Shown here piece after piece: positions 5,612 to 63,398 of a stretch of DNA of 64,000 nucleotides. The translations under genes and the position numbers were made by a program. The stretch comes from Anaerolineaceae bacterium (GTDB taxonomy: Bacteria; Chloroflexota; Anaerolineae; Anaerolineales; Anaerolineaceae): positions 1,012,862 to 1,076,861 of the forward strand of contig JAXGXE010000001.1 of assembly GCA_040772945.1 (NCBI GenBank), written 5' to 3'. The first letter of the stretch is position 1; each line of letters begins with the position of its first letter. The notes below the pieces were generated by a model. It made no database searches. It was not told the origin of the DNA and saw only the letters and a list, made by a program, of their open reading frames with translations.

Positions 5612-5627
5612 CAAAGAAAATGAGCTT
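5612..5627. repeat. 16-bp direct repeat CAAAGAAAATGAGCTT (copy 1 of 3), left flank of ISNCY-like copy 1
   Basis: The identical 16-mer occurs at 5612-5627, 9212-9227 and 10626-10641, each directly abutting an end of the ISNCY-like element. Confidence 0.9.
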
Positions 5628-7025: not shown

Positions 7026-7038
7026 CAATTCTTCCAAA

Positions 7039-8104
7039 TGTAGGATTGTCAAACATGTTGGACAGTCTGAGATAAAAATTGAATAGGTGATAAGAACTTC
7101 AATGGTCGCATCGGTATATGGTTACTGCGCTGGTTGTGTCTTCTCAGTTGTCTTTTGAAATCCTCAAATGAATAGAATGTTGATTTGTTATAGAAACGTT
7201 TTTGATCCTCCTTATGGCTTCTCTCTACTTTCCCATTGTGTCTGGGCGTGTAGGGTCTGATTAGTTTATGCTTTATTCCTTTATCGCGTAAGACAGCCTC
7301 AAACAAACTTAGATTATCCTCGTCTTTCGTTCTAAGAAAGCGTTTGGTGAATTCAAAGCCATTATCGGTCTGCACACATTCAACCTCAATCTCTCTGCTC
7401 TTGAACCAGGCAATGGCGTGTTCGATAAAAACAGCCGAGGAAAAAGTATCTGCTGTCTGAAAACCTTCCAGGTATCTCAAACGACTAAACTCATCAATAG
7501 CGGTGTATTGATAGTAGCGTTCCCAGTTTTCATCAACAATACACGCTTTAGGAACGACTTTTACGTCTACTTGTATTCTTTGCCCAGGATATTGCATCTG
7601 TTCATAGGCTTGTGCTTTGTATGGTTTCTTTTTGTTCTTCTTTTGTCTAAGCAGCCCTTCCCGTCGTAAAACCCTAAATAGGCTGACATAATGGCGACGA
7701 TAACCTTGTTTTCTGAGTTTGAACCAAAGTTCATATAAACCCAGGTCTTTATTTCGTTTGTGATAGCGACGGATCAAGGCTATCTCTTCCGGACTGTGTT
7801 GATTTGGGTGATGTTTGGGTCTTCTTGACCGACAGGCTAAGGATCTAATATCCCCATCATAGCGTTTGAGCCAAAAGTAAATATAGCTGCGACATCTGTT
7901 ATATTTCCTGGACGCTTTAGTTACTCCATGATTGAGGGCATATTTGACCAAAGAATGTCGATATTTCATGTCTTGTGTTATCTTATCCATAGCAGGTTGT
8001 GGTTTCTCCTTTTTGTTTTGTTTGTGCGCAATAACAATAACGGATACTTCCATTTCCTGCTATTCTTTTTTCATACACTGTCCAATATGTAGTGTAATCC
8101 TACA
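7039..8104 (-). mobile_element. IS481-family-like insertion sequence, copy A (1066 bp)
   Basis: The terminal inverted repeats TGTAGGATTGTCAAACATGTTGGACAGT and TGTAGGATTACACTACATATTGGACAGT (reverse complement of the far end) match at about 23 of 30 positions. One transposase ORF. Confidence 0.85.
7049..8053 (-). CDS. IS481-family DDE (integrase-core) transposase
   Basis: 334-aa ORF with an HTH followed by an rve-type core (QVDVK.., YTAIDEFSR, VQTDNGFEF, RPYTPRHNGKVERSH). The real start may be MDKITQDM at 7990. Confidence 0.8.
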   Translation of the reverse strand: MEVSVIVIAHKQNKKEKPQPAMDKITQDMKYRHSLVKYALNHGVTKASRKYNRCRSYIYFWLKRYDGDIRSLACRSRRPKHHPNQHSPEEIALIRRYHKRNKDLGLYELWFKLRKQGYRRHYVSLFRVLRREGLLRQKKNKKKPYKAQAYEQMQYPGQRIQVDVKVVPKACIVDENWERYYQYTAIDEFSRLRYLEGFQTADTFSSAVFIEHAIAWFKSREIEVECVQTDNGFEFTKRFLRTKDEDNLSLFEAVLRDKGIKHKLIRPYTPRHNGKVERSHKEDQKRFYNKSTFYSFEDFKRQLRRHNQRSNHIPMRPLKFLSPIQFLSQTVQHV

Positions 8105-8130
8105 TTTTTACAATCCTGTCAGAGCAAAGT
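8105..8130. repeat. 26-bp junction scar between IS481-like copies A and B
   Basis: The sequence is TTTTTACAATCCTGTCAGAGCAAAGT. Positions 8117-8130 are the reverse complement of the last 14 nt of the ISNCY-like element (ACTTTGCTCTGACA). Positions 8109-8117 are the reverse complement of AGGATTGTA, which matches the inner part of the IS481-like left inverted repeat. Confidence 0.8.
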
Positions 8131-9196
8131 TGTAGGATTGTCAAACATGTTGGACAGTCTGAGATAAAAATTGAATAGGTGATAAGAACTTCAATGGTCG
8201 CATCGGTATATGGTTACTGCGCTGGTTGTGTCTTCTCAGTTGTCTTTTGAAATCCTCAAATGAATAGAATGTTGATTTGTTATAGAAACGTTTTTGATCC
8301 TCCTTATGGCTTCTCTCTACTTTCCCATTGTGTCTGGGCGTGTAGGGTCTGATTAGTTTATGCTTTATTCCTTTATCGCGTAAGACAGCCTCAAACAAAC
8401 TTAGATTATCCTCGTCTTTCGTTCTAAGAAAGCGTTTGGTGAATTCAAAGCCATTATCGGTCTGCACACATTCAACCTCAATCTCTCTGCTCTTGAACCA
8501 GGCAATGGCGTGTTCGATAAAAACAGCCGAGGAAAAAGTATCTGCTGTCTGAAAACCTTCCAGGTATCTCAAACGACTAAACTCATCAATAGCGGTGTAT
8601 TGATAGTAGCGTTCCCAGTTTTCATCAACAATACACGCTTTAGGAACGACTTTTACGTCTACTTGTATTCTTTGCCCAGGATATTGCATCTGTTCATAGG
8701 CTTGTGCTTTGTATGGTTTCTTTTTGTTCTTCTTTTGTCTAAGCAGCCCTTCCCGTCGTAAAACCCTAAATAGGCTGACATAATGGCGACGATAACCTTG
8801 TTTTCTGAGTTTGAACCAAAGTTCATATAAACCCAGGTCTTTATTTCGTTTGTGATAGCGACGGATCAAGGCTATCTCTTCCGGACTGTGTTGATTTGGG
8901 TGATGTTTGGGTCTTCTTGACCGACAGGCTAAGGATCTAATATCCCCATCATAGCGTTTGAGCCAAAAGTAAATATAGCTGCGACATCTGTTATATTTCC
9001 TGGACGCTTTAGTTACTCCATGATTGAGGGCATATTTGACCAAAGAATGTCGATATTTCATGTCTTGTGTTATCTTATCCATAGCAGGTTGTGGTTTCTC
9101 CTTTTTGTTTTGTTTGTGCGCAATAACAATAACGGATACTTCCATTTCCTGCTATTCTTTTTTCATACACTGTCCAATATGTAGTGTAATCCTACA
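8131..9196 (-). mobile_element. IS481-family-like insertion sequence, copy B (1066 bp, identical to A)
   Basis: Same ends and the same ORF as copy A, displaced by 1092 bp. Confidence 0.85.
8141..9145 (-). CDS. IS481-family DDE transposase (identical to 7049-8053)
   Basis: The 334-aa translation is identical in the ORF track. Confidence 0.8.
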   Translation of the reverse strand: MEVSVIVIAHKQNKKEKPQPAMDKITQDMKYRHSLVKYALNHGVTKASRKYNRCRSYIYFWLKRYDGDIRSLACRSRRPKHHPNQHSPEEIALIRRYHKRNKDLGLYELWFKLRKQGYRRHYVSLFRVLRREGLLRQKKNKKKPYKAQAYEQMQYPGQRIQVDVKVVPKACIVDENWERYYQYTAIDEFSRLRYLEGFQTADTFSSAVFIEHAIAWFKSREIEVECVQTDNGFEFTKRFLRTKDEDNLSLFEAVLRDKGIKHKLIRPYTPRHNGKVERSHKEDQKRFYNKSTFYSFEDFKRQLRRHNQRSNHIPMRPLKFLSPIQFLSQTVQHV

Positions 9197-9227
9197 CACT
9201 TTGCTCTGACACAAAGAAAATGAGCTT
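9197..9227. repeat. 15-bp remnant of the ISNCY-like right end (CACTTTGCTCTGACA) followed by 16-bp direct repeat copy 2
   Basis: Positions 9197-9211 equal 7011-7025. Positions 9212-9227 equal 5612-5627. Confidence 0.85.
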
Positions 9228-10625: not shown

Positions 10626-10641
10626 CAAAGAAAATGAGCTT
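10626..10641. repeat. 16-bp direct repeat CAAAGAAAATGAGCTT (copy 3)
   Basis: It directly follows the right end of ISNCY-like copy 2. Confidence 0.9.
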
Positions 10642-10684: not shown

Positions 10685-10757
10685 GGTGCCTGTAGCTCAA
10701 TGGCAGAGCGCTTCACTGTGGCTGAAGATGTTGTGGGTTCGAGTCCCATCAGGCACC
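10685..10757 (+). tRNA. tRNA-His (anticodon GTG) with encoded G-1
   Basis: Hand-folded cloverleaf. Acceptor GTGCCTG/CAGGCAC with an extra 5' G opposite C73. D arm GCTC-AATGGCA-GAGC. Anticodon arm CTTCA-CTGTGGC-TGAAG. T arm GTGGG-TTCGAGT-CCCAT. CCA is not fully encoded. Confidence 0.9.
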
Positions 10758-10765
10758 CAGCTAAC

Positions 10766-29132: not shown

Positions 29133-29147
29133 TATGTCCTCCAACGC

Positions 29148-45026: not shown

Positions 45027-46016
45027 CTAAAAACCACTTTTCTTCAAGATTTCCTCCCACGGAGTTTCTCCCTGTAACAGGGGAAGAGGTATCACAGTAA
45101 ATGTACTACCTCCAGAAAGCCTTAAATTTACTTCTTCTCCTGGAGGAATAACAGCCCCGACGAAATATATAAACAAGAGATCATTCCACTTGCTAAATAT
45201 AAAACCTTCTAAATTGCTAAAATCTTTAAAAGTAAGAGCATAGTTTGATGACATAACAACTTCTGTAGAAGGGTCATCTGCTTTAACTTCAATGATATAG
45301 TAACCGTCATGACATGATGCGCTCCATGAACCATTCTGGATTCTTAAGGCATTTTCATCCAGTACGATTTCCTCTCCTGTTTCGTAATAAACAGATAAAA
45401 GGGGAATTAATTTATCAACGACCACTCCTGGTTCTACAGTCATCTTTATTTCTGTCTGAGATGGGACTAATACAGCTGTTGTAAAATCTTCACCATCAAT
45501 GGTAATAGCTCTATCTGCAAGTACTATCAAATCTTTTCCTTCAAGAGTAACAGCTTTTGAGTCAAAAACCAATAATCCTCTAGATTTCATCAAAAAAGAA
45601 ACTGTCCCTCCCTCTGATTTTAGGTCAAACTCTCCTTGATTGGTAACTACACTATATGGTGTTCCTACAGTGATTATGTCTACTGGATACTCATCTATTA
45701 AGTGAAATGTACCGTATTCACCCAAATCAATGGATAAGTCATCAGGCAAAGTAAATGCTCTTGGACAAATTACAGGTTCCTCCGTAGGAGTTGGCACTTC
45801 TGTCGGTACTTCTGTCGGTTCCTCCGTCGGAGTTGGCATCACTGTTGGCACTTCTGTTGGTTCCTCTAAAGGAATATCAGTTGGCTGTTCAACCTGAACA
45901 GGTTGTTCTACTGACGTGGGTATAGGTTTTACTGTCTGGGTACAACCAGCCATCGTAAAAAGAATAATCAGGAAGCAAATTGTTTTTTTTATATTATTTT
46001 CTCCAATATGGTTCAA
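45027..46016 (-). CDS. Lipoprotein with a Pro/Thr/Glu-rich repeat linker
   Basis: Signal peptide ending in lipobox-like FTMAGC, then EEPTEVPT repeats and a beta-rich C-terminal domain. TTG start. Confidence 0.6.
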   Translation of the reverse strand: MNHIGENNIKKTICFLIILFTMAGCTQTVKPIPTSVEQPVQVEQPTDIPLEEPTEVPTVMPTPTEEPTEVPTEVPTPTEEPVICPRAFTLPDDLSIDLGEYGTFHLIDEYPVDIITVGTPYSVVTNQGEFDLKSEGGTVSFLMKSRGLLVFDSKAVTLEGKDLIVLADRAITIDGEDFTTAVLVPSQTEIKMTVEPGVVVDKLIPLLSVYYETGEEIVLDENALRIQNGSWSASCHDGYYIIEVKADDPSTEVVMSSNYALTFKDFSNLEGFIFSKWNDLLFIYFVGAVIPPGEEVNLRLSGGSTFTVIPLPLLQGETPWEEILKKSGF

Positions 46017-47369: not shown

Positions 47370-48695
47370 ATGTTTGAGAATTTATCCGATAGATTAACCG
47401 CGGTATTTAACAATTTGCGCCGACGAGGCAAATTGAGCGAAAAGGATGTCGAAATCGCCTTGCGCGAGGTGCGCCTGGCTTTGCTGGAAGCTGATGTCAA
47501 CTATGGTGTGGTGCGGTCATTTACGAACCGTGTCAAAGAGCGAGCCGTTGGCGCGGAAGTATCGAAAGCGCTTAATCCTGCTCAGCAGGTTGTGAAGATT
47601 GTTAACGAAGAGCTGATTGCGACACTTGGGCAGGCTGAACCGCTCAATTTACGTGGAGAAAAGCCTCACATTATCATGATGATTGGTTTGCAAGGTTCAG
47701 GTAAAACGACAGCTACAGCAAAATTAGCTCGCAGGCTGAGAGCTGATGGAGAACGGGTGATGATGGTTGCGGCGGACATCTACCGACCTGCCGCTATCAA
47801 GCAGCTCCAAACTCTTGGCGAAAGGGTAAGTGTTCCGGTATTTACACTGCCAGGCGAAAAACCAGTCAAGATTGTGAAAGAAGCTTATGATCAAGCCAAG
47901 CGTGGTGGTTACACCGTGATGCTTATCGATACCGCTGGCCGCTCACAACTGGATGATTTTTTGATGCAGGAAATTGATGGCATTCAAAAGGCTGTGCCAT
48001 GCAATGAAATATTGCTGGTCATTGACTCAATGATAGGTCAGGAAGCCTTGAATATCGCGGAGGGTTTTCGCGATGTGATGCGCATTACTGGTTTGATTTT
48101 CACAAAAATCGATGGTGACGCGCGTGGTGGCGCGGCCATTTCTATTCGTGAAGTTACCGGTGTGCCGATTAAATTCCTCGGTACGGGTGAGGGCTTGGAT
48201 GCGTTGGAAGTATTTGACCCCGCGCGGATAAGTGGACGTATCCTGGGCATGGGGGATATGTTAGGTTTGATTGAGAAAGCCGAAGCGGCATATGCTGAAG
48301 GTATCGCGGTTGAAGACGCTGAACGAATGCTAAAAGGACAGTTCACGCTGGAAGACTTCGCCAAGCAACTCAAACAGATTAAGAAGATGGGACCGCTATC
48401 GCAGGTTATGGGCATGTTACCTGGGCAATTCGGGCAGGTCGCCAAACAAGTTGACCCACATGAGGTGGATAGCCAGCTAAAAGGGGTTGAAGCGATTATT
48501 GCCTCGATGACCCCAGCTGAGCGAAGAGATCCGCGCATATTAAATGCCAGTCGACGGCGGAGAATTGCAGCAGGATGCGGTAAAAATGTTCAGGATGTTA
48601 ATCGCTTGATGAAACAATTCCGGGAAATACAAACCCTGATGAAAAAATTCCAGAAACCAGGAAGTAATCGGGATATTGAAAGAATGTTTGGATAG
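47370..48695 (+). CDS. ffh: Signal recognition particle protein Ffh
   Basis: 441 aa with an NG domain (GLQGSGKTTATAKLA, DTAGR) and a Met-rich M domain. Confidence 0.95.
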   Translation: MFENLSDRLTAVFNNLRRRGKLSEKDVEIALREVRLALLEADVNYGVVRSFTNRVKERAVGAEVSKALNPAQQVVKIVNEELIATLGQAEPLNLRGEKPHIIMMIGLQGSGKTTATAKLARRLRADGERVMMVAADIYRPAAIKQLQTLGERVSVPVFTLPGEKPVKIVKEAYDQAKRGGYTVMLIDTAGRSQLDDFLMQEIDGIQKAVPCNEILLVIDSMIGQEALNIAEGFRDVMRITGLIFTKIDGDARGGAAISIREVTGVPIKFLGTGEGLDALEVFDPARISGRILGMGDMLGLIEKAEAAYAEGIAVEDAERMLKGQFTLEDFAKQLKQIKKMGPLSQVMGMLPGQFGQVAKQVDPHEVDSQLKGVEAIIASMTPAERRDPRILNASRRRRIAAGCGKNVQDVNRLMKQFREIQTLMKKFQKPGSNRDIERMFG

Positions 48696-48756: not shown

Positions 48757-48781
48757 CCTGTTTACATGTGCCACAAAAAAC
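48757..48781. repeat. 25-bp direct repeat flanking IS481-like copy C (left)
   Basis: CCTGTTTACATGTGCCACAAAAAAC matches 51812-51836 (CCTGTTTACATGTGCCACACAAAAC) at 24 of 25 positions. Confidence 0.85.
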
Positions 48782-48791
48782 TGTAGGATTG

Positions 48792-49733
48792 TCAAACATG
48801 TTGGACAGTCTGAGATAAAAATTGAATAGGTGATAAGAACTTCAATGGTCGCATCGGTATATGGTTACTGCGCTGGTTGTGTCTTCTCAGTTGTCTTTTG
48901 AAATCCTCAAATGAATAGAATGTTGATTTGTTATAGAAACGTTTTTGATCCTCCTTATGGCTTCTCTCTACTTTCCCATTGTGTCTGGGCGTGTAGGGTC
49001 TGATTAGTTTATGCTTTATTCCTTTATCGCGTAAGACAGCCTCAAACAAACTTAGATTATCCTCGTCTTTCGTTCTAAGAAAGCGTTTGGTGAATTCAAA
49101 GCCATTATCGGTCTGCACACATTCAACCTCAATCTCTCTGCTCTTGAACCAGGCAATGGCGTGTTCGATAAAAACAGCCGAGGAAAAAGTATCTGCTGTC
49201 TGAAAACCTTCCAGGTATCTCAAACGACTAAACTCATCAATAGCGGTGTATTGATAGTAGCGTTCCCAGTTTTCATCAACAATACACGCTTTAGGAACGA
49301 CTTTTACGTCTACTTGTATTCTTTGCCCAGGATATTGCATCTGTTCATAGGCTTGTGCTTTGTATGGTTTCTTTTTGTTCTTCTTTTGTCTAAGCAGCCC
49401 TTCCCGTCGTAAAACCCTAAATAGGCTGACATAATGGCGACGATAACCTTGTTTTCTGAGTTTGAACCAAAGTTCATATAAACCCAGGTCTTTATTTCGT
49501 TTGTGATAGCGACGGATCAAGGCTATCTCTTCCGGACTGTGTTGATTTGGGTGATGTTTGGGTCTTCTTGACCGACAGGCTAAGGATCTAATATCCCCAT
49601 CATAGCGTTTGAGCCAAAAGTAAATATAGCTGCGACATCTGTTATATTTCCTGGACGCTTTAGTTACTCCATGATTGAGGGCATATTTGACCAAAGAATG
49701 TCGATATTTCATGTCTTGTGTTATCTTATCCAT
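48792..49733 (-). CDS. IS481-family DDE transposase (copy C; upstream region severed by the insertion)
   Basis: 313 aa, identical to copies A and B from MDKITQDM onward. The 21-codon N-terminal extension seen in A and B is cut off by the insertion at 49769/49770. Confidence 0.75.
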   Translation of the reverse strand: MDKITQDMKYRHSLVKYALNHGVTKASRKYNRCRSYIYFWLKRYDGDIRSLACRSRRPKHHPNQHSPEEIALIRRYHKRNKDLGLYELWFKLRKQGYRRHYVSLFRVLRREGLLRQKKNKKKPYKAQAYEQMQYPGQRIQVDVKVVPKACIVDENWERYYQYTAIDEFSRLRYLEGFQTADTFSSAVFIEHAIAWFKSREIEVECVQTDNGFEFTKRFLRTKDEDNLSLFEAVLRDKGIKHKLIRPYTPRHNGKVERSHKEDQKRFYNKSTFYSFEDFKRQLRRHNQRSNHIPMRPLKFLSPIQFLSQTVQHV

Positions 49734-49745
49734 AGCAGGTTGTGG

Positions 49746-49769
49746 TTTCTCCTTTTTGTTTTGTTTGTG
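49746..49769. repeat. 24-bp direct repeat TTTCTCCTTTTTGTTTTGTTTGTG (left) bounding the insertion
   Basis: Present once in copies A and B (for example 8003-8026) and twice here (49746-49769 and 51710-51733). Confidence 0.9.
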
Positions 49770-49920
49770 TAGGGTATTTTGAGGATATAAACATCGGTGT
49801 AAATGATAATGAAGTAAGCAAGTCGGGGAAGGGTCACGGCTAAGCGTTCGCGTCGCTTCGCTTTGCTACGCGCCACAAACGCAAAGCCTAACCCTTGCCC
49901 CGAACCCCATCCCGATAAGT

Positions 49921-49948
49921 AAATAGCGCGCCATTCGGCGCGCTATTT
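49921..49948 (-). terminator. Hairpin downstream of the 70-aa ORF
   Basis: AAATAGCGCGCC-ATTC-GGCGCGCTATTT. The 18-nt core GCGCGCCATTCGGCGCGC recurs at 51264-51281. Confidence 0.5.
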
Positions 49949-49972
49949 ACATGGAACTTTCTAACTCTAACA

Positions 49973-50185
49973 CTAATCAAAAGAAGGATTAGCAACAAAT
50001 GCTATGAGATCTAAAACCTCCTTTCTATGGTAAAGCCACCTGTTTATATAATAGTAAACTTGGCGCTCACTTACTCCCAGCCTCCCGGCAATATCCTCTA
50101 CACATTTGCCCTTTTGCCAATACGTGCCGGCTAAAGCCACCTTTTGCGCCACAATAAACTTATTACTCCCTTTGGTTTTTGACAT
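49973..50185 (-). CDS. Small helix-turn-helix protein (unknown family)
   Basis: About 70 aa from MSKTKG. The HTH-like segment is CVEDIAGRLGVSERQVYYYINRW. The track ORF extends to 50212. Confidence 0.5.
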   Translation of the reverse strand: MSKTKGSNKFIVAQKVALAGTYWQKGKCVEDIAGRLGVSERQVYYYINRWLYHRKEVLDLIAFVANPSFD

Positions 50186-50438
50186 CCTGCCAAATCTTAC
50201 CCGCGTTTGCAATCCCGATAACTTTACTAAGGTTATTAAAGCTCAATAAATCCAAACATTCCAATATATCAGCGAACAAATAATGTAAATCAAACTTCGT
50301 TCTAACCCCGTCCAAACAATTCACATTATTAGCAGTCTTAATATCCCTATAAAGCTCGCCAAATCTCGCCAAAACCCGCTCATGATCCAAGCGGTGCACT
50401 TCCTCTCTACCGAACTCTACAACCCAATTCCTATCCAT
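50163..50438 (-). CDS. Hypothetical 91-aa protein
   Basis: MDRNWVVEFGREEV.. is preceded by a strong AAGGAGG Shine-Dalgarno. It overlaps the downstream HTH ORF by about 23 nt. I recognise no family. Confidence 0.5.
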   Translation of the reverse strand: MDRNWVVEFGREEVHRLDHERVLARFGELYRDIKTANNVNCLDGVRTKFDLHYLFADILECLDLLSFNNLSKVIGIANAGKIWQDVKNQRE

Positions 50439-50539
50439 ACATCCTCCTTGGCTTCCATGCAATAAACTGCAATATCAACACCAATTATAGAACACCTTTT
50501 CTAATTTGTCATTATGAAACGCTCAAACTCAATAGCCCA

Positions 50540-51700
50540 ATCCAACATTCTGCGCACGCTTTCGCCTTGGCTGTTCGCTTTACGGTGTAAAAGCAACACC
50601 GATGACGCTCACATGCCAAGGCTAACCGTTCTTGCTGTTAGCCAGCTCTCATTAGTCCCATCCAACATTCGGCGCATTCTCACCGTTCTGCCGGCTCGCC
50701 AGTCTCACTACACCACCCGCCAACGTTTGGCGCATGCTCCGTTTTGGCGCGTCGCTCCGCGGGTAAAAGCGTTCCCGATGTCGCTCCCGCGCCAAAACTC
50801 GCGCTTCCACTTGTCAACACCAAACGCACCTGAACCCCGCGCACTTCTCGCTATCACAATCGCCTGTGCTCAGGCTTGGTGTCGCTTCGCTCGCCAGCCT
50901 TCGCAACGCACTCCGCACTAAACTTAGTCCTTACCCGCGCGTTTTTTTAACGCTCCGCTAATCGTTCCGGCTTCGCTAAAAACGCGCTCCGTTTGTTCGC
51001 TTCGTGCGTGGTTGCCCCCTTCCCCCCAGCTCCCCCCGAACCCCCCTTCCAACCCCCCACACCCCACAAATGTCTCATTCAATCGGGGGGAAACTTGGGG
51101 GGATATATGGGTCAACTTCAGCCTCTCTCGCTTCGCTCGTTCGCACTGAGCCTATTTTTAAGTAGGCTTTTCGGGCTTCCGTCGGCTTCGCCATCTTCAG
51201 CCCTCCAAGCCACTATCCCCGCGAGGCTCGGCAAGCCTCCGCGGGATGGTTTTCTCATAAGGTGCGCGCCATTCGGCGCGCAATCATATACACGCCTTCG
51301 CTATTCGCTCAGGCGCGCCTTCATAAGGTGTTGCCTCGCGTACGCTCGGCAACGTTATAGAATGCCTGCCTTCGCTGTTCGCTCAGGCAGGCTCTTAGCT
51401 AAGGTGTTGCCCTCGCTGTTCGCTCGGGCAACGTTCCGCATTGCCAGCAAAGCCGGCAATGCTCAATAGTTTCGCCTCTTTTCACCTCCCCCTGCAGTGC
51501 CCTCAGTTCGTTCGCTTTGTTGCGAACTCAAAAGCCTTCGGGCACTGCGCCTCACCCCGCAAGAAAAAGCAGAGGTACGCGCGGTTGCCCGCTTCGCGGG
51601 CTTGCGCGGGACTTCGCCCGCGCGGTGGCTAATGCGCCAGCCCCAGCGCGCTACGCGCGCGGGCAGGCGCTAAACGCCACCAACCGCGCTAAGACCTCTG
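50540..51700. repeat. Array of at least 12 GC-rich imperfect palindromes (REP/BIME-like) with conserved loops and variable stems
   Basis: Examples: 51364-51392 GCCTGCC-TTCGCTGTTCGCTCA-GGCAGGC; 51406-51432 GTTGCCC-TCGCTGTTCGCTC-GGGCAAC; 51330-51353 GTTGCC-TCGCGTACGCTC-GGCAAC; 51438-51462 GCATTGCC-N9-GGCAATGC; 51494-51548 GCAGTGCCC..GGGCACTGC; 50564-50622 and 50741-50798 are paralogous 60-nt hairpins. Confidence 0.8.
51015..51102. repeat. Homopolymer C-run cluster followed by two G6 runs (G-quadruplex/i-motif-capable)
   Basis: Runs C5, C6, C6, C6, C6 and C4 lie between 51015 and 51065. G6 runs are at 51085-51090 and 51097-51102. Confidence 0.8.
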
Positions 51701-51709
51701 TTTTTCTTT

Positions 51710-51733
51710 TTTCTCCTTTTTGTTTTGTTTGTG
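51710..51733. repeat. 24-bp direct repeat (right) bounding the insertion
   Basis: Identical to 49746-49769. Confidence 0.9.
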
Positions 51734-51811
51734 CGCAATAACAATAACGGATACTTCCATTTCCTGCTATTCTTTTTTCATACACTGTCCAATATGTAGT
51801 GTAATCCTACA

Positions 51812-51836
51812 CCTGTTTACATGTGCCACACAAAAC
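51812..51836. repeat. 25-bp direct repeat flanking IS481-like copy C (right)
   Basis: Matches 48757-48781 at 24 of 25 positions. Confidence 0.85.
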
Positions 51837-51990: not shown

Positions 51991-52338
51991 ATGGTACGTA
52001 TTCGACTAAGACGGGTCGGTTCCGCACACCAAGCCCATTATCGTGTGGTTGTAGCTGATAAAGAAAGCCCACGTGATGGACGCTTTATTGAAATCGTTGG
52101 GCATTACAACCCACGCACCAAACCCAACACAATTGTGTTCAAAGAAGATCGCATTTACTATTGGCTTGGTGTTGGCGCGCAACCTTCTGAAACAGTTGAA
52201 AAATTGTTTAAACAGGTTGGGTTGGACGAACGATTTAAACGTCATAAAGCTGGTGAAGACGTGGAAACTTTGCTTGCCGAAGCAGCTAAGACCTACGATA
52301 GCCGGGTTACAAATCCCCGGACGACACATAGCGATTAA
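51991..52338 (+). CDS. rpsP: 30S ribosomal protein S16
   Basis: [39 protein letters not shown], with a C-terminal extension. Confidence 0.95.
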
Positions 52339-54348: not shown

Positions 54349-56763
54349 ATGGAAATATATTGTTTGAAATGCAAAGAGAAACGGGAAATCCCCGAAACGA
54401 CAGCTGTTTTCACCGCGAATGGTGTGCCTGGTACTCGGGGTGTGTGCCCTGAATGTGGCACGAATGTGTTTAAAATGGGCGCTACACCTGCGCATGATGG
54501 CATGGAAAAGCCTGTAATCGAAAAGAAAGCCTCTAAAGCAGCTGCTAAAACGTCCAAAAAAGCTAAAAAGGGAAGTAAGCCTTCTGCAAAAATAAGCAGA
54601 CGTGGAAAAAGTTCTGTTGGTCCAAATTTTGCGGATCGTATTAGCATGGATGGATTAGGCAAACCCCTGGTGATTGTAGAATCACCAGCAAAAGCGCAAA
54701 CCATTGGCAGGTTCCTGGGAAATAAGTACAAGGTTGTCGCATCATACGGCCATGTGCGTGACCTTTTAGCATCACGTTTGAGTGTCGATCCTGAAAATGA
54801 TTTCGCGCCCGAATATCGTGTGCCTAATGACAAATCAAAATTGGTCAAGAAAATTGCTGAAATTGCTGAAAAAAGCCCCGAAGTCTATCTGGCGACTGAC
54901 CCTGACCGCGAAGGTGAATCCATCGCATGGCATCTGATGGAATCTGCGGATATACCGGAAAACAAGACCAAACGCGTTGTCTTTCATGAAATTACCAAAC
55001 CAGCCATTGATGCGGCTTTCAAAAATGCCCGAACACTGGACATGGATTTGGTCGACGCGCAACAGGCACGTCGCATTTTAGATCGTTTGGTTGGCTACAA
55101 AGTAAGCCCCCTGTTGTGGAATAAAGTGCGGAGTCGCCTTTCTGCTGGACGTGTGCAATCCGTTGCCGTGCGACTGGTTGTCGAGCGGGAGCGCGAAATA
55201 CAAAACTTCGTGCCGGTAGAATATTGGGTTGTTTCTGCTATCTTTCATCAAGTTGGTCATAATGCTCAATATGAAGCGAAGCTGCTTAAAATTGATGCTG
55301 AAGACCTAAATCTCGGTAATGAGAATGACACGCTCGCAACGGTTGCTGATATGAAACAGGCGAATTACAAACTCGCCGAGAAAAAACAGAGCACACGCCG
55401 CAACAGACCCAGCGCGCCATATATTACCAGCACCCTGCAACAGGACGCGTCCAGTCGCTTGGGCTTTTTGGCAAACCGAACGATGATGGTTGCGCAACAG
55501 CTCTATGAAGGTATCAAGCTGAGTGGTTCTGAAGAAACCGGTTTGATTACATATATGCGTACCGACTCTGTGAATGTATCAACACAGGCTATAAGCGAGG
55601 TGCGTGGTTTTATTGCTAACGAGTACGGTGAAGACTATTTACCTGCCAAGCCTGCCCAATATCGAACGCGTGCCAAGACTGCTCAGGAGGCTCATGAGGC
55701 TATTCGTCCGACATCGGTTTACCGCACACCCGATAAAATGCAGCCTTTCTTAACGCCAGAGCAGCATCGGCTTTACACAATCATCTGGCAGCGATTTGTT
55801 GCCAGCCAGATGGAACCTCAGGTGGTGGAAACCTTAAGCCTGGATATAGCTGGTCAATCTGTAGCCCATCAATACCTATTGCGGGCAACTGCCAGCCAAA
55901 CTGTTTTCCCTGGTTTTCGATCGGTCTATCCTCCTGCTAATAGTGATAATTCTGAAAACCCAGAAATGGTTAGTCTTTTCAAAGAGATTTTGGAAGAAGG
56001 TAAAGAGCAAATTTTGGATGACCTGAACTATGAGCAAAAATTCACTCAACCTCCGTCACGGTATTCAGAAGCATCGCTCATTATGACTTTGGAGGAAAAC
56101 GACATTGGTCGTCCAAGCACATACGCGCCAATTATTTCAACCATCCAAACCCGTGGTTACGTGGAACGCCAGAAACGAATGTTGGTACCAACCGAAATCG
56201 GCTTTATCGTAAATGATTTGTTGGTGGAATTCTTTCCGGAAATTGTGGACATTAAGTTTACATCCCGCATGGAAGAAGAGCTTGACGAAATTGCAGAGGG
56301 CAACGCGGAATGGGTTGAGGTTTTGCAGGAATTCTATACGCCTTTTGAGAAACGTTTGGATTACGCCGCTGAAAATATGCCTAACAGAAAGCCTGCACCA
56401 AAGGAAATTGGACGAGCATGTCCTGAATGTAGTCAGCCCCTGGTAATGCGTTCGGGTCGTTTTGGCGATTTTATAAGTTGTAGTACTTTCCCAGCTTGTC
56501 GCTATACAGAAAACATTCCTGTAAAGCTCGATATGGTTTGTCCAAGCTGCCAGGAGGGTGAGGTTATCCAAAAGCGCACCAAGCAAGGAAAGATATTCTA
56601 TGGCTGCAGTCGCTATCCAGAATGTGAATTTGCGTCCTGGCAAAAACCAATGGAAGAAAGTTGTCCCAGTTGTGGCGGTCTGCTGACCGAAAAGAGTGCA
56701 GATAATGCGGTTTGTACAGATTGTAAATTGACTTTCCCTCAAATTAACGGAAAACTTGTCTAA
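54349..56763 (+). CDS. topA: DNA topoisomerase I with an extra N-terminal zinc ribbon and a Lys-rich linker
   Basis: Toprim start LVIVESPAKAQTIGRFLG at about residue 105. C-terminal CxxC zinc fingers. N-terminal CLKCK..CPECG ribbon followed by KKASKAAAKTSKKAKKGSKPSAK. Confidence 0.9.
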   Translation: MEIYCLKCKEKREIPETTAVFTANGVPGTRGVCPECGTNVFKMGATPAHDGMEKPVIEKKASKAAAKTSKKAKKGSKPSAKISRRGKSSVGPNFADRISMDGLGKPLVIVESPAKAQTIGRFLGNKYKVVASYGHVRDLLASRLSVDPENDFAPEYRVPNDKSKLVKKIAEIAEKSPEVYLATDPDREGESIAWHLMESADIPENKTKRVVFHEITKPAIDAAFKNARTLDMDLVDAQQARRILDRLVGYKVSPLLWNKVRSRLSAGRVQSVAVRLVVEREREIQNFVPVEYWVVSAIFHQVGHNAQYEAKLLKIDAEDLNLGNENDTLATVADMKQANYKLAEKKQSTRRNRPSAPYITSTLQQDASSRLGFLANRTMMVAQQLYEGIKLSGSEETGLITYMRTDSVNVSTQAISEVRGFIANEYGEDYLPAKPAQYRTRAKTAQEAHEAIRPTSVYRTPDKMQPFLTPEQHRLYTIIWQRFVASQMEPQVVETLSLDIAGQSVAHQYLLRATASQTVFPGFRSVYPPANSDNSENPEMVSLFKEILEEGKEQILDDLNYEQKFTQPPSRYSEASLIMTLEENDIGRPSTYAPIISTIQTRGYVERQKRMLVPTEIGFIVNDLLVEFFPEIVDIKFTSRMEEELDEIAEGNAEWVEVLQEFYTPFEKRLDYAAENMPNRKPAPKEIGRACPECSQPLVMRSGRFGDFISCSTFPACRYTENIPVKLDMVCPSCQEGEVIQKRTKQGKIFYGCSRYPECEFASWQKPMEESCPSCGGLLTEKSADNAVCTDCKLTFPQINGKLV

Positions 56764-62846: not shown

Positions 62847-63398
62847 ATGGCAAAACTTCCATTTTATGAGGGTGCGAATTTATATTTCGTAACATTCACA
62901 CTCAATAACCATGCGCATCTTTTTAAAAATGCGGTTTACAGGGATATTGTTATTGACAGTCTGAAATTTTGTGTAAATCAGCGACACTTGAGGATATTTG
63001 CTTATGTAATAATGTCATCGCATTTGCATTTGATTGTATTCGATTCAAATTACAACAATAAACGACTAAAAACAACGATTGACCAATTTAGAAGTTTTAC
63101 AGCGCATGAAATTTTGAAAAAATTAAAAGAAAATAATCCAGAATTGTTGCTCAATTTAATCGAGAAATCAAGAACAGACAGGGAATATAGAATTTGGACT
63201 GATGGATTTCATGCCATTGGATTAGATACAGAACAAAAATTAAAACAAAGATTTGATTACATTCACAACAACCCAGTGAAAGCTTTACTTGTAAAAGATC
63301 CAAAAGAATGGCTATATTCTTCAGCATCATATTGGGAAGATGGCAAAATTGGACCATTACCTATTCATCATTATTTGGATGTAGATGAGATTGGATAG
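62847..63398 (+). CDS. REP-associated tyrosine transposase (RAYT; IS200-like Y1 HUH transposase)
   Basis: 183 aa with HUH motif SSHLHLIV, catalytic-Tyr motif FDYIHNNPVKA, and the N-terminus ..ANLYFVTFTL. Confidence 0.8.
   Translation: MAKLPFYEGANLYFVTFTLNNHAHLFKNAVYRDIVIDSLKFCVNQRHLRIFAYVIMSSHLHLIVFDSNYNNKRLKTTIDQFRSFTAHEILKKLKENNPELLLNLIEKSRTDREYRIWTDGFHAIGLDTEQKLKQRFDYIHNNPVKALLVKDPKEWLYSSASYWEDGKIGPLPIHHYLDVDEIG

What the first reader, a model, noticed from the sequence alone, without database searches (positions are those of the whole stretch)
50540..51700. About 1.2 kb of non-coding hairpin array: conserved loops, covarying stems, two alternating unit types
Seen in the sequence:
- Hairpins share loop sequences but differ in their stems. 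Examples are GCCTGCC-TTCGCTGTTCGCTCA-GGCAGGC (51364-51392), GTTGCCC-TCGCTGTTCGCTC-GGGCAAC (51406-51432), ACGCC-TTCGCTATTCGCTCA-GGCGC (about 51292-51316) and GTTGCC-TCGCGTACGCTC-GGCAAC (51330-51353).
- Three hairpins are each preceded by TAAGGTG, and these alternate with the TTCGCT-loop type.
- Two paralogous units of about 95 nt have different outer stems: GCCTTGGC/GCCAAGGC (50564-50622) and GTTTTGGCGCG/CGCGCCAAAAC (50741-50798). Their inner stems also differ: CGGTG/CACCG versus CGGG/CCCG.
- Those two units keep the same unpaired segments TCGCT, GTAAAAGC and CCGATG-N-CGCTC, and the same leader CCAAC-RTT..GCGCA.
- All six-frame ORFs here are low-complexity and rich in Arg, Pro and Ala.

Inference: stem covariation with constant loops indicates selection on secondary structure, of DNA or RNA, rather than on coding. 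Possible explanations are a BIME-like REP cluster, protein-binding iterons or a single-strand origin of a small replicon, or a processed structured RNA array.
Basis: seen in the sequence. Interest (0 to 1): 0.7.

Follow-up and report, generated by a model that had tools for sequence, protein, structure and literature searches.

The report
Hairpin-rich half of nested mobile element
The 1.2 kb of hairpins is the non-coding half of an apparently undescribed 1.94-kb mobile element with no recognisable transposase, which has jumped into an ordinary insertion sequence that itself landed between two housekeeping genes.

Summary
The hairpins are at the stated coordinates and share loops over different stems. 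They fold better than shuffles (z -3.5 to -5.6 for 51100-51700, weaker to the left).

The context changes the reading. Related contigs have only about 240 bp between ffh and rpsP. Here a 3030-bp insertion (48782-51811) is an IS481-family IS with a 25-bp target duplication. Inside it sits a second insertion, 49770-51709 (1940 bp), flanked by a perfect 24-bp duplication. Two intact 1066-bp copies of the IS in this window show the empty site.

The 1.94-kb element consists of the hairpin array, a conserved promoter/operator, and two small DNA-binding-type ORFs (91 and 69 aa). It also occurs without the IS, and divergent relatives occur in Anaerolineae MAGs. Those keep about 1 kb of G-rich hairpins, a covarying C-run/G-run hairpin, and C-GNA-G capped hairpins on the ORF-sense strand only.

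It has no inverted ends, no transposase and no Rfam match. Stems show compensatory changes.

Best reading: a cis-acting single-stranded fold of an unclassified mobile element, with DNA slightly favoured over RNA. It is not a REP/BIME cluster.

The parts
48757..48781 (.). Left copy of the 25-bp target-site duplication made by the carrier IS (CCTGTTTACATGTGCCACAAAAAAC).
   Evidence: The empty site is present once in L001-L007. Alignment and reading.
48782..51811 (-). Composite insertion of 3030 bp: a 1066-bp IS481-family IS carrying the 1.94-kb element. Terminal inverted repeats TGTAGGATT...TTGGACAGT lie at 48782-48809 and 51784-51811.
   Evidence: Absent from contigs encoding the identical S16 protein. 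The same composite sits at another site in L011, 99% identical over 3030 bp. Ends were read.
48792..49733 (-). IS481-family DDE transposase of 313 aa (HTH plus rve).
   Evidence: Pfam rve and rve_3. NCBIfam transpos_IS481 at 192 bits with full profile coverage, below the 224-bit cut-off.
49746..49769 (.). Copy of the 24-bp target-site duplication of the 1.94-kb element on its 3' side (minus strand: CACAAACAAAACAAAAAGGAGAAA).
   Evidence: The intact IS copies L044-L051, and window 7039-8104 and 8131-9196, hold this sequence once. The alignments overlap by 24 bp.
49770..51709 (-). The 1.94-kb mobile element: hairpin array, promoter/operator, ORF1, ORF2 and a 3' structured tail. The ends are ambiguous by up to 3 nt because of AAA microhomology.
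   Evidence: The same unit occurs without the IS in L012-L019 (90% identical) and L020/L025 (99.9%; L025 is a 1944-bp contig equal to the element). No terminal inverted repeats.
49780..49960 (-). 3' structured region after ORF2. It holds a terminator-like hairpin AAATAGCGCGCC-GAAT-GGCGCGCTATTT (49919-49950), a G-run/C-run hairpin, and a pyrimidine-rich tail ending ...ACCCTA(C).
   Evidence: Sequence. Fold z-scores of -3.5 to -5.4. Analogous 3' regions occur in other subfamilies. A covariance-model hit lies at 49846-49871.
49973..50182 (-). ORF2, 69 aa, a helix-turn-helix protein. It overlaps the end of ORF1 by 20 nt.
   Evidence: Pfam HTH_23 at 8e-7 on the longer 79-aa TTG-start reading of this ORF (window 49973-50212). 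Called as a 70-aa HTH_23 gene in L016-L020.
50163..50438 (-). ORF1, 91 aa, of unknown family. The predicted fold is a beta-hairpin plus four helices; I read the last three (52-61, 67-74, 76-88) as a helix-turn-helix-like bundle.
   Evidence: Family alignment A2. About 15 clusters among 1.84 billion proteins. AlphaFold pLDDT 83.5. No PDB fold match.
50484..50512 (-). Sigma-70-type promoter ATGACA-17-TATAAT of the ORF1-ORF2 operon. The palindrome TAGAA..TTCTA (50488-50503) overlaps the -10 box.
   Evidence: Matches 11 of 12 consensus positions. Together with the core, this is the only block conserved across subfamilies.
50520..51709 (-). Hairpin array (the finding). It is non-coding, G-rich on the minus strand, and built of tandemly duplicated hairpin units.
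50540..50800 (-). Two paralogous units of about 95 nt (outer stems at 50561-50625 and 50741-50798), plus a stem-less copy of their leader at 50648-50702.
   Evidence: (D4-D7, I9, I11).
51011..51116 (-). Conserved core: a long hairpin with a covarying basal helix (GTTGACCC/GGGGGCAAC), an AUAU/A internal loop and two C6:G6 helices. Its apical region contains GGGGTGTGGGGGGTTGG and surplus G-runs.
   Evidence: Conserved architecture in WIN, L021, L022, L024, L029, L036 and L040. Own-partner arm pairing beats all other permutations, 1 of 5040. Compensatory change TA to GC at 51115/51012.
51259..51435 (-). Tandem two-hairpin units. Loops read GAGCG(N2-4)GCGA(A) on the minus strand, and the stems differ.
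   Evidence: (D1-D3), and covariance-model hits at 23.8-35.6 bits.
51556..51709 (-). 5'-terminal multi-branched domain, closed by the stem 51694-51705 / 51565-51576 and followed by a T-run on either strand. It contains C-GNA-G capped hairpins (GCGCGC-GTA-GCGCGC, GCCCGC-GAA-GCGGGC).
   Evidence: (I10). Fold z-scores of -4.7 to -6.2.
51710..51733 (.). Copy of the element's 24-bp target-site duplication on its 5' side.
51812..51836 (.). Right copy of the carrier IS's 25-bp target-site duplication (24 of 25 identical to the left copy).
7039..9196 (-). Two intact tandem 1066-bp copies of the same IS (7039-8104 and 8131-9196). They show the uninterrupted 'empty site' for the 1.94-kb element.
   Evidence: 100% identical to 48782-49769 and 51710-51812, with a 24-bp overlap.

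Best explanation
**What it is (shown).** The array is the non-coding half of a discrete 1.94-kb mobile element (window 49770-51709, oriented on the minus strand). That element inserted, with a 24-bp target duplication, into the 5' untranslated region of an IS481-family IS. The loaded IS then transposed as a unit into the ffh-rpsP spacer, making a 25-bp duplication.

**What it carries (shown).**
- Two small DNA-binding-type ORFs (ORF2 has a Pfam helix-turn-helix; for ORF1 this rests only on the predicted helices) behind a conserved promoter/operator.
- About 1.2 kb of hairpins: a conserved C-run/G-run long hairpin, embedded in fast-evolving, tandemly duplicating hairpin units.

**How it most likely works (inferred).**
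- The array acts in cis as a folded single strand. The G-rich, ORF-sense strand is the active one, which is the window's minus strand.
- I favour single-stranded DNA over RNA. In this reading, a single-stranded form of the element arises during its mobilisation or copying. That strand collapses into nuclease- and SSB-resistant C-GNA-G mini-hairpins and G/C-run structures.
- Those structures would mark the strand and nucleate complementary-strand synthesis or recognition by a trans-acting enzyme. This is the way single-strand origins and the intergenic region of filamentous phages work.
- The enzyme that moves the element is not encoded in it and remains unidentified.

**My probabilities.**

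| Claim | Probability |
|---|---|
| The array is part of a nested mobile element | about 0.95 |
| Structure is selected on the minus strand | about 0.75 |
| The active form is ssDNA rather than RNA | about 0.4 versus 0.3 |
For: **Nested insertions.**
- Contigs encoding the identical S16 protein have a 240-bp ffh-rpsP spacer.
- Intact 1066-bp IS copies lack the element, both elsewhere (L044-L051) and in this window. Their alignments overlap by exactly 24 bp.
- The element occurs without the IS in other contexts.
- Other copies are flanked by direct repeats of 22-31 bp of unrelated sequence.

**A family feature.**
- ORF1 homologues at 54-62% identity in Chloroflexota/Anaerolineaceae MAGs and metagenomes each have about 1 kb of GC-rich, G-skewed, non-coding DNA upstream.
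- That DNA has the same C-run/G-run core.

**Structure is selected.**
- The core's basal helix pairs best with its own partner arm. Only 1 of 5040 permutations does as well.
- Between the window and L012 copies there are 5 compensatory pairs (null 0.28) and 8 broken pairs (null 22.4).

**Strand specificity.**
- G exceeds C in every family member.
- CGAAG occurs 54 times against 13 expected, while its reverse complement occurs 7 times against 8 expected.
- Among perfect-stem triloops, 15 are GNA and 0 are TNC.
- All 22 covariance-model hits lie on the ORF-sense strand.

**Leaning towards DNA.**
- C-GNA-G and C-GNNA-G are the 'mini-hairpin DNA' motifs. They are far more stable as DNA than as RNA. 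They are documented at ssDNA priming sites: the G4 origin, ssiA, and the N4 hairpin promoters (PMC13037366, read).
- Only 2 of the perfect-stem tetraloops are GNRA and none is UUCG.
- No sigma-70-like promoter lies in the array on either strand. The one conserved promoter lies downstream and points away.
- The element lacks the inverted ends a double-strand cut-and-paste transposase would need.
Against: - No single-stranded intermediate has been shown. The element encodes no HUH Rep, relaxase, reverse transcriptase or primase.
- Known ssDNA transposons (IS200/IS605, IS91) make no target duplication, whereas this element makes 20-31 bp.
- The ssoA hallmark CS-6 (TAGCGT) is absent: 0 occurrences in 10.6 kb of arrays.
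- An array of 1.2 kb is several times longer than known single-strand origins.
- The wobble test does not separate RNA from DNA: G.T 14 against A.C 7, with shuffles giving 53:35.
- G-richness, purine-rich loops and a lower RNA folding energy on the minus strand (-541.6 against -460.3 kcal/mol) are equally what a structured RNA would show.
- In 3 of 4 loci examined, upstream genes or promoters are co-directional, so read-through transcription is possible.
- The core alone does not fold better than shuffles (z -0.79).
- The array diverges faster than the ORFs: 4.9% substitutions plus indels against 0 of 276 nt in ORF1. Only the fold, not the sequence, appears constrained, and templated palindrome repair could mimic that.
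Confidence: 0.4

Rival explanations
1. The array is transcribed in the ORF sense and works as a large structured RNA of the mobile element. It could be a guide or scaffold for a trans-acting recombinase or reverse transcriptase, a 5' processing domain, or a CsrB-like multi-hairpin sponge for an RNA-binding protein. In each case the loops are the recognition sites.
For: - The strand asymmetry has purine-rich loops and G greater than C in all members.
- RNA folding energy is 81 kcal/mol lower on the minus strand.
- There are compensatory changes and a covarying core helix.
- There is precedent for long functional non-coding regions in IS elements: the IS110/IS1111 seekRNA (PMC11187229, abstract seen).
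- Repeated hairpins with a constant loop over variable stems are the architecture of protein-sponge RNAs (my own knowledge).
- Upstream transcription is co-directional in the window, L036 and L040.
Against: - There is no Rfam match on either strand, even at E<=10.
- No sigma-70-like promoter lies in or at the 5' end of the array. The conserved promoter is downstream of it.
- The 5' end is a terminator-like stem plus T-run that would stop read-in transcription.
- In L024 the upstream genes are divergent.
- Hairpin caps are mostly C-GNA-G triloops rather than the GNRA or UNCG tetraloops typical of RNA (PMC13037366).
Confidence: 0.3
2. The array has no function of its own. It would be a selfish or neutral minisatellite of palindromic units that expands and contracts by slippage inside a tolerant non-coding part of the element. 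Stems would be kept perfect by intrastrand templated (quasi-palindrome) repair rather than by selection.
For: - Turnover by whole-unit duplication and deletion is rapid.
- There is no primary-sequence conservation across subfamilies outside the core and the promoter.
- The array diverges faster than the ORFs.
- Templated repair can produce paired changes without selection (established mutational mechanism, my own knowledge).
Against: - Every subfamily keeps about 1-1.3 kb of it, with the same strand bias and loop classes, despite sequence turnover.
- Compensatory pairs include long-range partners 52 and 103 nt apart.
- The core architecture and its basal-helix covariation persist down to 54-60% ORF1 protein identity.
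- A strict one-strand orientation of GNA loops (15 to 0) is not expected from symmetric palindrome dynamics.
Confidence: 0.15
3. The array is a set of double-stranded DNA binding sites (iterons, or a centromere- or operator-like array) for the element's two helix-turn-helix-type proteins.
For: - Two small DNA-binding-type proteins are encoded next to it (ORF2 has a Pfam HTH_23 match; ORF1's helix-turn-helix is my reading of the predicted helices).
- The promoter carries a palindromic operator.
- AAGGTG/CACCTT occurs in the operator region and three times in the array.
Against: - Double-strand binding sites conserve sequence, not pairing. Here the stems change while complementarity is kept.
- The conserved parts are the loops, read on one strand only.
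- The operator palindrome itself is not repeated in the array.
Confidence: 0.07
4. The array is a BIME-like cluster of REP elements maintained by a REP-associated tyrosine transposase.
For: - The units are short, GC-rich imperfect palindromes in a cluster.
- A sub-threshold Y1_Tnp-like ORF lies at 62847-63398.
- The weakest Rfam hit is to a REP-derived RNA, naRNA4, at E=9.4.
Against: - The units occur only inside the 1.94-kb element: nowhere else in 64 kb, nor in the host flanks of 17 other loci.
- All units have the same orientation rather than alternating.
- The Y1_Tnp match is 19.2 bits against a cut-off of 23, and no GC-rich hairpins flank that ORF.
- REP, BIME and RAYT criteria are taken from the abstract of PMC2817692.
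Confidence: 0.03

Closest known systems
Single-strand origins and ssDNA initiation signals (ssoA of rolling-circle plasmids, sso1 of ICEBs1, ssiA of RSF1010, the G4 complementary-strand origin, the filamentous-phage intergenic region)
   Same: - Non-coding and orientation-specific.
- Made of several hairpins whose loops carry the conserved signal.
- C-GNA-G / GCGNNAGC mini-hairpins are documented at such sites (PMC13037366; PMC4595007; PMC4598088).
   Different: - The array is 1.2 kb, several times longer than the few-hairpin origins described there.
- The CS-6 TAGCGT motif is absent.
- No Rep, relaxase or double-strand origin is linked.
- The array sits in an element that makes long target duplications.
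- It also has a C-run/G-run core with no counterpart in known single-strand origins.
IS481 / IS1202-type insertion sequences with long target duplications
   Same: - The carrier IS is one of these: an rve transposase, TGT...ACA inverted ends, and a 25-bp duplication.
- Duplications of about 24-29 bp are reported for these families (PMC10045372).
- The nested element's duplications (20-31 bp) are in the same range.
   Different: - The nested element has no transposase.
- It has no inverted ends and no sequence like the IS ends.
- Its termini are not TG...CA.
REP/BIME clusters with RAYT
   Same: Clustered, short, GC-rich imperfect palindromes in non-coding DNA.
   Different: - The units are not dispersed and not alternating in orientation.
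- They are not linked to a credible RAYT.
- They travel as part of one 1.94-kb unit.
Long non-coding regions of IS110/IS1111 that encode seekRNA/bridge RNA
   Same: A sizeable structured non-coding region inside a mobile element, adjacent to its genes. In those families the region carries out end and target recognition (PMC11187229, abstract).
   Different: - Those RNAs are much shorter than this array (about 180 nt, from my own recollection) and sit next to a DEDD recombinase.
- There is no Rfam hit here.
- No recombinase gene is present and no promoter was found.
CsrB/RsmZ-type multi-hairpin sponge RNAs
   Same: Tandem hairpins with one conserved loop motif on variable stems (my own knowledge of the family).
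   Different: - The loop motif is RAGCGA / GNA, not GGA.
- No promoter bounds the region.
- The array is part of a mobile element.
Non-LTR retroposons (SINE/LINE-like, target-primed reverse transcription)
   Same: - Variable-length target duplications of 20-31 bp.
- No inverted ends.
- 1-4 nt of microhomology at the 5' junction.
   Different: - No reverse transcriptase in the element.
- No 3' A-tail.
- No internal promoter found.
- Copies are full length.
- Such elements are not known in bacteria (my own knowledge).

Membership tests
REP/BIME with RAYT | Individual palindromic units dispersed at high copy number in intergenic DNA. | tested here: not met
   Loop and unit motifs occur only at 50.5-51.7 kb in the 64-kb window. 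Covariance-model hits in the window and 17 loci lie almost entirely within copies of the element; the only exceptions are two E=0.18 hits in L040 just upstream of its inferred start. No hit falls in the host-only loci L001, L009, L044 or L046. The whole genome could not be scanned.
REP/BIME with RAYT | Neighbouring REPs in alternating orientation. | tested here: not met
   GNA triloops are 15 to 0 on one strand. All 22 covariance-model hits are on one strand.
REP/BIME with RAYT | A RAYT gene flanked by the same REPs. | tested here: not met
   ORF 62847-63398 scores 19.2 bits for Y1_Tnp, below the cut-off of 23. No GC-rich hairpins flank it, and it has no similarity to the array.
ssoA-type single-strand origin | An orientation-specific, hairpin-forming non-coding region. 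| tested here: met
   Fold z-scores reach -5.6 with RNA parameters and -6.2 with DNA parameters. Loop asymmetry is strict to one strand. Only the sequence-level property was tested, not activity.
ssoA-type single-strand origin | The conserved RSB and the CS-6 motif (TAGCGT) in a loop. | tested here: not met
   TAGCGT occurs 0 times in 10.6 kb of arrays from 11 elements. TAGCGA occurs 7 times. The motif definition comes from PMC4598088.
ssoA-type single-strand origin | Linkage to a rolling-circle Rep and double-strand origin, or to a relaxase and oriT. | tested here: not met
   The element encodes only a 91-aa and a 69-aa protein. Neither has an HUH or relaxase match.
IS481-family IS (the carrier, 48782-51811 minus the nested element) | A single DDE (rve) transposase with an N-terminal helix-turn-helix. 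| tested here: met
   Pfam rve, rve_3 and HTH_28. NCBIfam transpos_IS481 covers profile positions 2-283 of 284 at 192 bits, below the 224-bit equivalog cut-off.
IS481-family IS (the carrier, 48782-51811 minus the nested element) | TGT...ACA terminal inverted repeats and a target-site duplication. | tested here: met
   The ends were read. The 25-bp duplication is set against an empty site. Long duplications are reported for IS481/IS1202 (PMC10045372).
Non-autonomous derivative (MITE/MIC) of the resident IS481-family IS | Terminal inverted repeats matching the parent IS. | tested here: not met
   There are no inverted repeats between the element's ends. No IS-end-like sequence lies at either end.
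Any described RNA family (Rfam 15: group II introns, HEARO/omega RNA, GOLLD, ROOL, OLE, self-cleaving ribozymes and others) | A covariance-model match. | tested here: not met
   No gathering-score hit in the region. The best E-value hits are chance-level, 15.7-21 bits against cut-offs of 45-117.
Non-LTR retroposon (target-primed reverse transcription) | Variable-length target duplications without inverted ends. | tested here: met
   Duplications are 20-24, 25, 27, 23 and 31 bp in five contexts. There are no inverted repeats.
Non-LTR retroposon (target-primed reverse transcription) | A reverse transcriptase (in cis or in trans), a 3' A-rich or simple-repeat tail, and frequent 5' truncation. | tested here: inconclusive
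   The element holds no reverse transcriptase. Its 3' end is ...AAAATACCCTAC with no tail. The 5' parts differ between L021 and L028, but no clear truncation series was seen. A trans-acting enzyme in the genome could not be searched for.
Protein-coding gene | A conserved ORF with homologues. | tested here: not met
   Six ORFs in the region have no Pfam match at E<=1. The 135-aa ORF is not called in L012-L019. Indels remove whole hairpins.

The most novel reading that the evidence does not exclude
The 1.94-kb unit would be a new class of bacterial mobile element whose own nucleic acid does the work usually done by transposase-binding ends. In this reading:
- The 1.2-kb fold, as RNA or as a cDNA/ssDNA strand, is the substrate or guide for a trans-acting enzyme.
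- Insertion occurs by a target-primed, staggered-nick mechanism.
- That mechanism would explain the 20-31-bp duplications, the absence of inverted ends, and the junction microhomology.

It would in effect be a bacterial SINE-like or satellite element. The conserved C-run/G-run core, possibly a G-quadruplex, would be its recognition module.
Probability: 0.12. Interest if true: 0.9.

Novelty: new variant of a known kind. Interest (0 to 1): 0.62.

Why it matters
If this reading holds, Anaerolineae from bioreactor and digester metagenomes carry a family of compact mobile elements with three unusual properties:
- They spread without encoding any recognisable transposase, recombinase or reverse transcriptase.
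- They lack inverted ends.
- They devote 60% of their length to a strand-specific nucleic-acid fold.

This gives a concrete, testable case of cis-acting single-stranded structure taking the place of transposase-binding ends. The element has a known empty site and a 100%-identical filled/empty pair within one genome.

The case also shows IS-in-IS hitch-hiking: the loaded IS481-family copy has moved at least twice.

There are practical consequences too. The G-run tract breaks metagenome assemblies. Gene callers place spurious ORFs in the array, such as the 135-aa gene called in GCA_040769705.1.

Tried and rejected
**Searches for a known identity, all negative.**
- Rfam at gathering thresholds and at E<=10 gave nothing credible.
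- tblastn of ORF1 against PLSDB plasmids and INPHARED phages gave no match.
- An exact scan of viral contigs for the core motif GGGGTGTGGGGGGTTGG gave 11 unrelated chance hits.
- ORF1 had no meaningful hit in a PDB sequence-profile search or a Foldseek search; the best Foldseek E-value was 2.2.
- Pfam, NCBIfam, PHROGs and PADLOC found only weak generic helix-turn-helix hits for ORF2.

**Tests of how the element ends and is expressed.**
- Terminal inverted repeats within the element: none.
- Sequences like the IS481 ends in the element: none at the ends.
- Sigma-70 promoters in arrays of nine elements, both strands: only the conserved ORF promoter was found.

**Tests that were inconclusive or not usable.**
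- G.T versus A.C mismatches in stems, to decide RNA versus DNA: inconclusive at 14:7, with shuffles giving 53:35.
- Fold z-score of the core alone: not significant at -0.79, because G/C runs fold anyway.
- The MAFFT alignment of the core (A5) misaligns the G-runs. I therefore did not use it for a covariance model and tested arm complementarity by permutation instead.
- The first z-score script timed out.
- Some apparent flanking repeats (L021/L030 16 bp, L040 24 bp) are host REP-like repeats, so I did not count them as target duplications.

**Identities considered and rejected.**
- ssoA: the CS-6 motif is absent.
- Integron attC array: the GTT...AAC order is wrong on both strands.
- Type III toxin-antitoxin RNA repeats: there is no regular short unit.
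- IMEX/dif insertion: the flanking repeats differ in sequence between sites.


Full report

Yes. The quoted hairpins are at the quoted positions. The repeat finder recovers the loop-sharing families, the TAAGGTG-prefixed units and the two roughly 95-nt paralogous units. The GTAAAAGC..CCGATG.CGCTC segment occurs twice against 0.02 expected.

The 'alternating unit types' are a tandem duplication of a two-hairpin unit. 51294-51356 is about 82% identical to 51368-51435.

Against dinucleotide shuffles, 200-nt windows give these fold z-scores:
- 51100-51699: -3.5 to -5.6 with RNA parameters and -3.3 to -6.2 with DNA parameters.
- 50500-51099: only -0.7 to -2.9.
- Neighbouring coding DNA: near 0.

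The six ORFs in the region have no Pfam match. The region stands out in composition. GC is 0.48-0.53 against about 0.45 nearby, and GC skew is -0.36 and -0.15 on the plus strand. So the loops are purine-rich on the minus strand.

**2. Context: two nested insertions**

The flanking genes are ffh (47370-48695) and rpsP (51991-52338). Ten metagenome contigs encode the identical S16 protein. In the eight that reach upstream of rpsP, ffh lies only about 240 bp away.

Alignment shows that the window carries a 3030-bp insertion at 48782-51811. It has TGTAGGATT...TTGGACAGT inverted ends and a 25-bp target duplication, with 24 of 25 positions identical. Its 313-aa gene is an IS481-family DDE transposase. 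Duplications of about 24-29 bp are documented for IS481/IS1202 elements (PMC10045372).

The IS proper is only 1066 bp. Intact copies occur in other contigs (L044-L051). Two more lie in this window at 7039-8104 and 8131-9196 and are 100% identical. Their alignments to the composite overlap by exactly 24 bp.

So 49770-51709 (1940 bp) is a second insertion, into the IS's 5' untranslated region. It is flanked by the perfect duplication CACAAACAAAACAAAAAGGAGAAA. The loaded IS has moved at least twice: it is found in the window and, at 99% identity, at another site in L011 (GCA_040769705.1).

**3. The 1.94-kb unit is a mobile element in its own right**

It occurs without the IS in several places:
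- At 90% identity inside a tandem repeat next to a diversity-generating retroelement (L012-L019).
- At 99.9% identity in a third context (L020).
- As a 1944-bp contig equal to the element (L025).

Read on the minus strand, it contains the following parts in order:
- The hairpin array (51709-50520).
- A sigma-70-type promoter, ATGACA-17-TATAAT, overlapped by a TAGAA..TTCTA palindrome.
- ORF1, 91 aa.
- An overlapping ORF2, 69 aa, with an HTH_23 domain.
- A terminator-like hairpin.
- A G-run/C-run hairpin and a pyrimidine-rich tail.

Other copies are flanked by direct repeats of unrelated sequence. L012 has 22 bp, or 25 bp allowing one mismatch. L024 has 27 bp, L022 has 23 bp and L029 has 31 bp.

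There are no terminal inverted repeats. No sequence resembling the IS ends lies at either end. The 5' junction shows 1-4 nt of microhomology.

ORF1 belongs to a tiny family. There are about 20 clusters at 90% identity and about 15 at 50% identity among 1.84 billion representatives. All but one weak partial hit (to a 1190-aa protein) are short proteins of 46-116 aa. Hosts are Chloroflexota/Anaerolineaceae MAGs. ORF1 has a confident predicted fold (pLDDT 83.5) with no PDB neighbour. Nothing in the element resembles a transposase, recombinase, Rep or reverse transcriptase.

**4. What is conserved in the array**

Homologues at 54-62% ORF1 identity (L021-L024, L028-L043) each have about 1 kb of GC-rich, G-skewed, ORF-free DNA upstream of the gene. 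BLAST finds only two blocks shared across subfamilies: the promoter/operator, and a core of about 150 nt.

The core is a long hairpin (window 51116-51011) with these features:
- A basal helix that differs in sequence but stays complementary:

| Copy | Basal helix arms |
|---|---|
| Window | GTTGACCC / GGGGGCAAC |
| L024 | GGTAGCCCC / GGGGGCTATCC |
| L040 | GCGTGGCC / GGCCAACGC |
| L029 | CCTTCCCC / GGGGGAAGG |

- An AUAW/A internal loop.
- C6:G6 helices, with covarying inserts such as CCCTTCCCC/GGGGAAGGG and TCTCTCCCC/GGGGAGAGA.
- An apical region with the conserved ACMTTAGC-GGGGTGTGGGGGGTTGG and surplus G-runs.

Each 5' arm pairs best with its own 3' arm. Only 1 of 5040 permutations does as well.

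The rest of the array turns over quickly by unit duplication and deletion, but it keeps its character. The enriched motifs on the ORF-sense strand are:

| Motif | Observed | Expected |
|---|---|---|
| CGAAG | 54 | 13 |
| GAGCG | 46 | 19 |
| AGCGA | 54 | 13 |

Their reverse complements occur at or below expectation. Hairpins with YTCTTTT loops recur in many members.

**5. Selection on structure, and on which strand**

I compared the window copy with the L012 copy. The array differs at 4.9% of aligned sites plus 116 gapped positions, while ORF1 is identical at 276 of 276 nt.

Within stems predicted from the window copy:
- There are 5 compensatory double changes. They include partners 52 and 103 nt apart, and one lies in the core. 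The null mean is 0.28.
- There are only 8 disruptive changes, against a null mean of 22.4.
- For both measures, none of 2000 randomisations reached the observed value.

The loops identify the strand:
- Among perfect-stem triloop hairpins in 11 arrays, 15 of 25 are GNA, mostly closed by C-G, and none is TNC.
- A covariance model of the GAGCG..GCGA hairpin finds 22 hits at E<=5 in 155 kb, all on the ORF-sense strand. In the window all hits lie inside the element, and there are none in the host-only loci.

So the functional strand is the window's minus strand.

**6. RNA or DNA?**

This is not settled.

For RNA:
- Persistent G greater than C, purine-rich loops, and a much lower RNA folding energy on that strand (-541.6 against -460.3 kcal/mol).
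- Co-directional upstream transcription in three of four contexts.

For DNA:
- The dominant caps, C-GAA-G, C-GTA-G and C-GCAA-G, are the GCGNAGC/GCGNNAGC 'mini-hairpin DNA' motifs.
- These are far more stable as DNA than as RNA.
- They are found at ssDNA priming sites and at hairpin promoters (PMC13037366).
- GNRA and UNCG tetraloops are rare.
- No promoter is detectable in the array on either strand in nine elements. The one conserved promoter lies downstream and points away.
- The element's 5' end is a terminator-like stem with a T-run.

The G.T versus A.C test is uninformative. I therefore put ssDNA at about 0.4 and RNA at about 0.3.

**7. Mechanism I commit to**

Shown:
- The array is part of a discrete, recently active mobile element.
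- Its hairpins are maintained by compensatory change.
- The signal lies on one strand.

Inferred:
- The G-rich strand acts in cis in single-stranded form.
- It most likely does so as the folded strand of a mobilisation or copying intermediate.
- There the mini-hairpins and G/C-run structures would resist nucleases and SSB.
- They would also mark where complementary-strand synthesis, or a trans-acting enzyme, engages. This is how single-strand origins and filamentous-phage intergenic regions work (PMC4595007).

Unknown:
- The enzyme that moves the element.
- How duplications of 20-31 bp arise without inverted ends.

The duplication length matches that of the resident IS481-family IS (25 bp), which hints at a similar staggered cut. 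However, the ends do not fit a DDE transposase. The alternative is target-primed synthesis from an RNA or DNA strand.

**8. Comparison with known systems**

- **REP/BIME cluster:** no. All three defining features that could be tested were not met.
- **ssoA:** no. CS-6 is absent and there is no Rep.
- **Derivative of the IS it sits in:** no. It has no matching ends.
- **Any Rfam family:** no match.

It works most like a single-strand origin or phage intergenic region. Failing that, it works like the functional non-coding regions of IS110/IS1111. It is a member of neither.

I rate it a new variant of a known kind: a non-autonomous mobile element with a cis-acting structured region. I give about a 12% chance that it represents a truly new mobilisation mode.

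**9. Verdict**

- Interest is 0.62.

Noticed in passing
window 5612-10628: An IS nest beside tRNA-His (10686-10758). Two identical 1417-bp IS copies (5612-7028 and 9212-10628; 427-aa transposase with HTH and rve_3-like domains) bracket two identical tandem 1066-bp IS481-family copies (7039-8104 and 8131-9196), which are separated by 26 bp.
   Followed up: partly
window 62847-63398: The '63-kb RAYT' is a 183-aa ORF with only a sub-threshold IS200-like Y1_Tnp match (19.2 bits against a cut-off of 23; E 0.0014). No GC-rich palindromes flank it.
   Followed up: yes
L012 2698-7067 (also L013-L016, L026): The 90%-identical copy of the element sits in a tandem repeat of about 447 bp. This lies just upstream of a diversity-generating retroelement: a Pkinase-FGE-sulfatase target protein, an RVT_1 reverse transcriptase, and bAvd.
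   Followed up: partly
L023, L033, L035 (contig starts): Several metagenome contigs begin inside the G-run tract of the conserved core. Most contigs carrying ORF1 are under 2 kb. The element, and especially its G-runs, break short-read assemblies.
   Followed up: no
window 50163-50438 compared with L012 1792-2067: ORF1 is identical at all 276 nucleotides between two element copies whose arrays differ at 4.9% of sites plus 116 gap positions. Either the ORF is constrained at the nucleotide level, or it was recently homogenised by recombination.
   Followed up: partly
window 49919-49950 and 51263-51282: The hairpin after ORF2 (AAATAGCGCGCC-GAAT-GGCGCGCTATTT) shares its GCGCGCC-GAAT-GGCGCGC core with a hairpin inside the array. 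The same hairpin module therefore occurs at both ends of the operon.
   Followed up: no
L021 808-900 and 2791-2810; L028 330-412 and 2214-2260; L040 2171-2240 and 4198-4360: Host REP-like palindromic repeats (TGGCGGGTTGAGGACGGTCAAATG, ATGTGCCCGCAGGGTAT, CAAGATCCTTCGCAATACCCAT) flank several copies of the element. The element may prefer to insert into repeat or hairpin-rich intergenic DNA.
   Followed up: partly
window 50514-50921 (plus strand); L011 4518-4925: A 135-aa ORF rich in Arg, Pro, Ala and Ser lies across the array. It is annotated as a gene in GCA_040769705.1, but it has no homologues and is not called in the 90%-identical copies. It is probably a spurious gene call.
   Followed up: yes
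window 54349-56763: DNA topoisomerase I carries an N-terminal DUF5679 domain. It sits in the conserved rpsP-khpA-rimM-dprA-topA neighbourhood.
   Followed up: no
window 21001-29144, 3447-5519 and 45027-46016: Adjacent 1779-aa and 935-aa TPR-repeat proteins lie on the minus strand. Separately, a 690-aa ORF has no Pfam match even at E<=1, and a 329-aa ORF has only a sub-threshold match to the PT disordered repeat (E 0.0011, 18.9 bits against a cut-off of 26.2).
   Followed up: no
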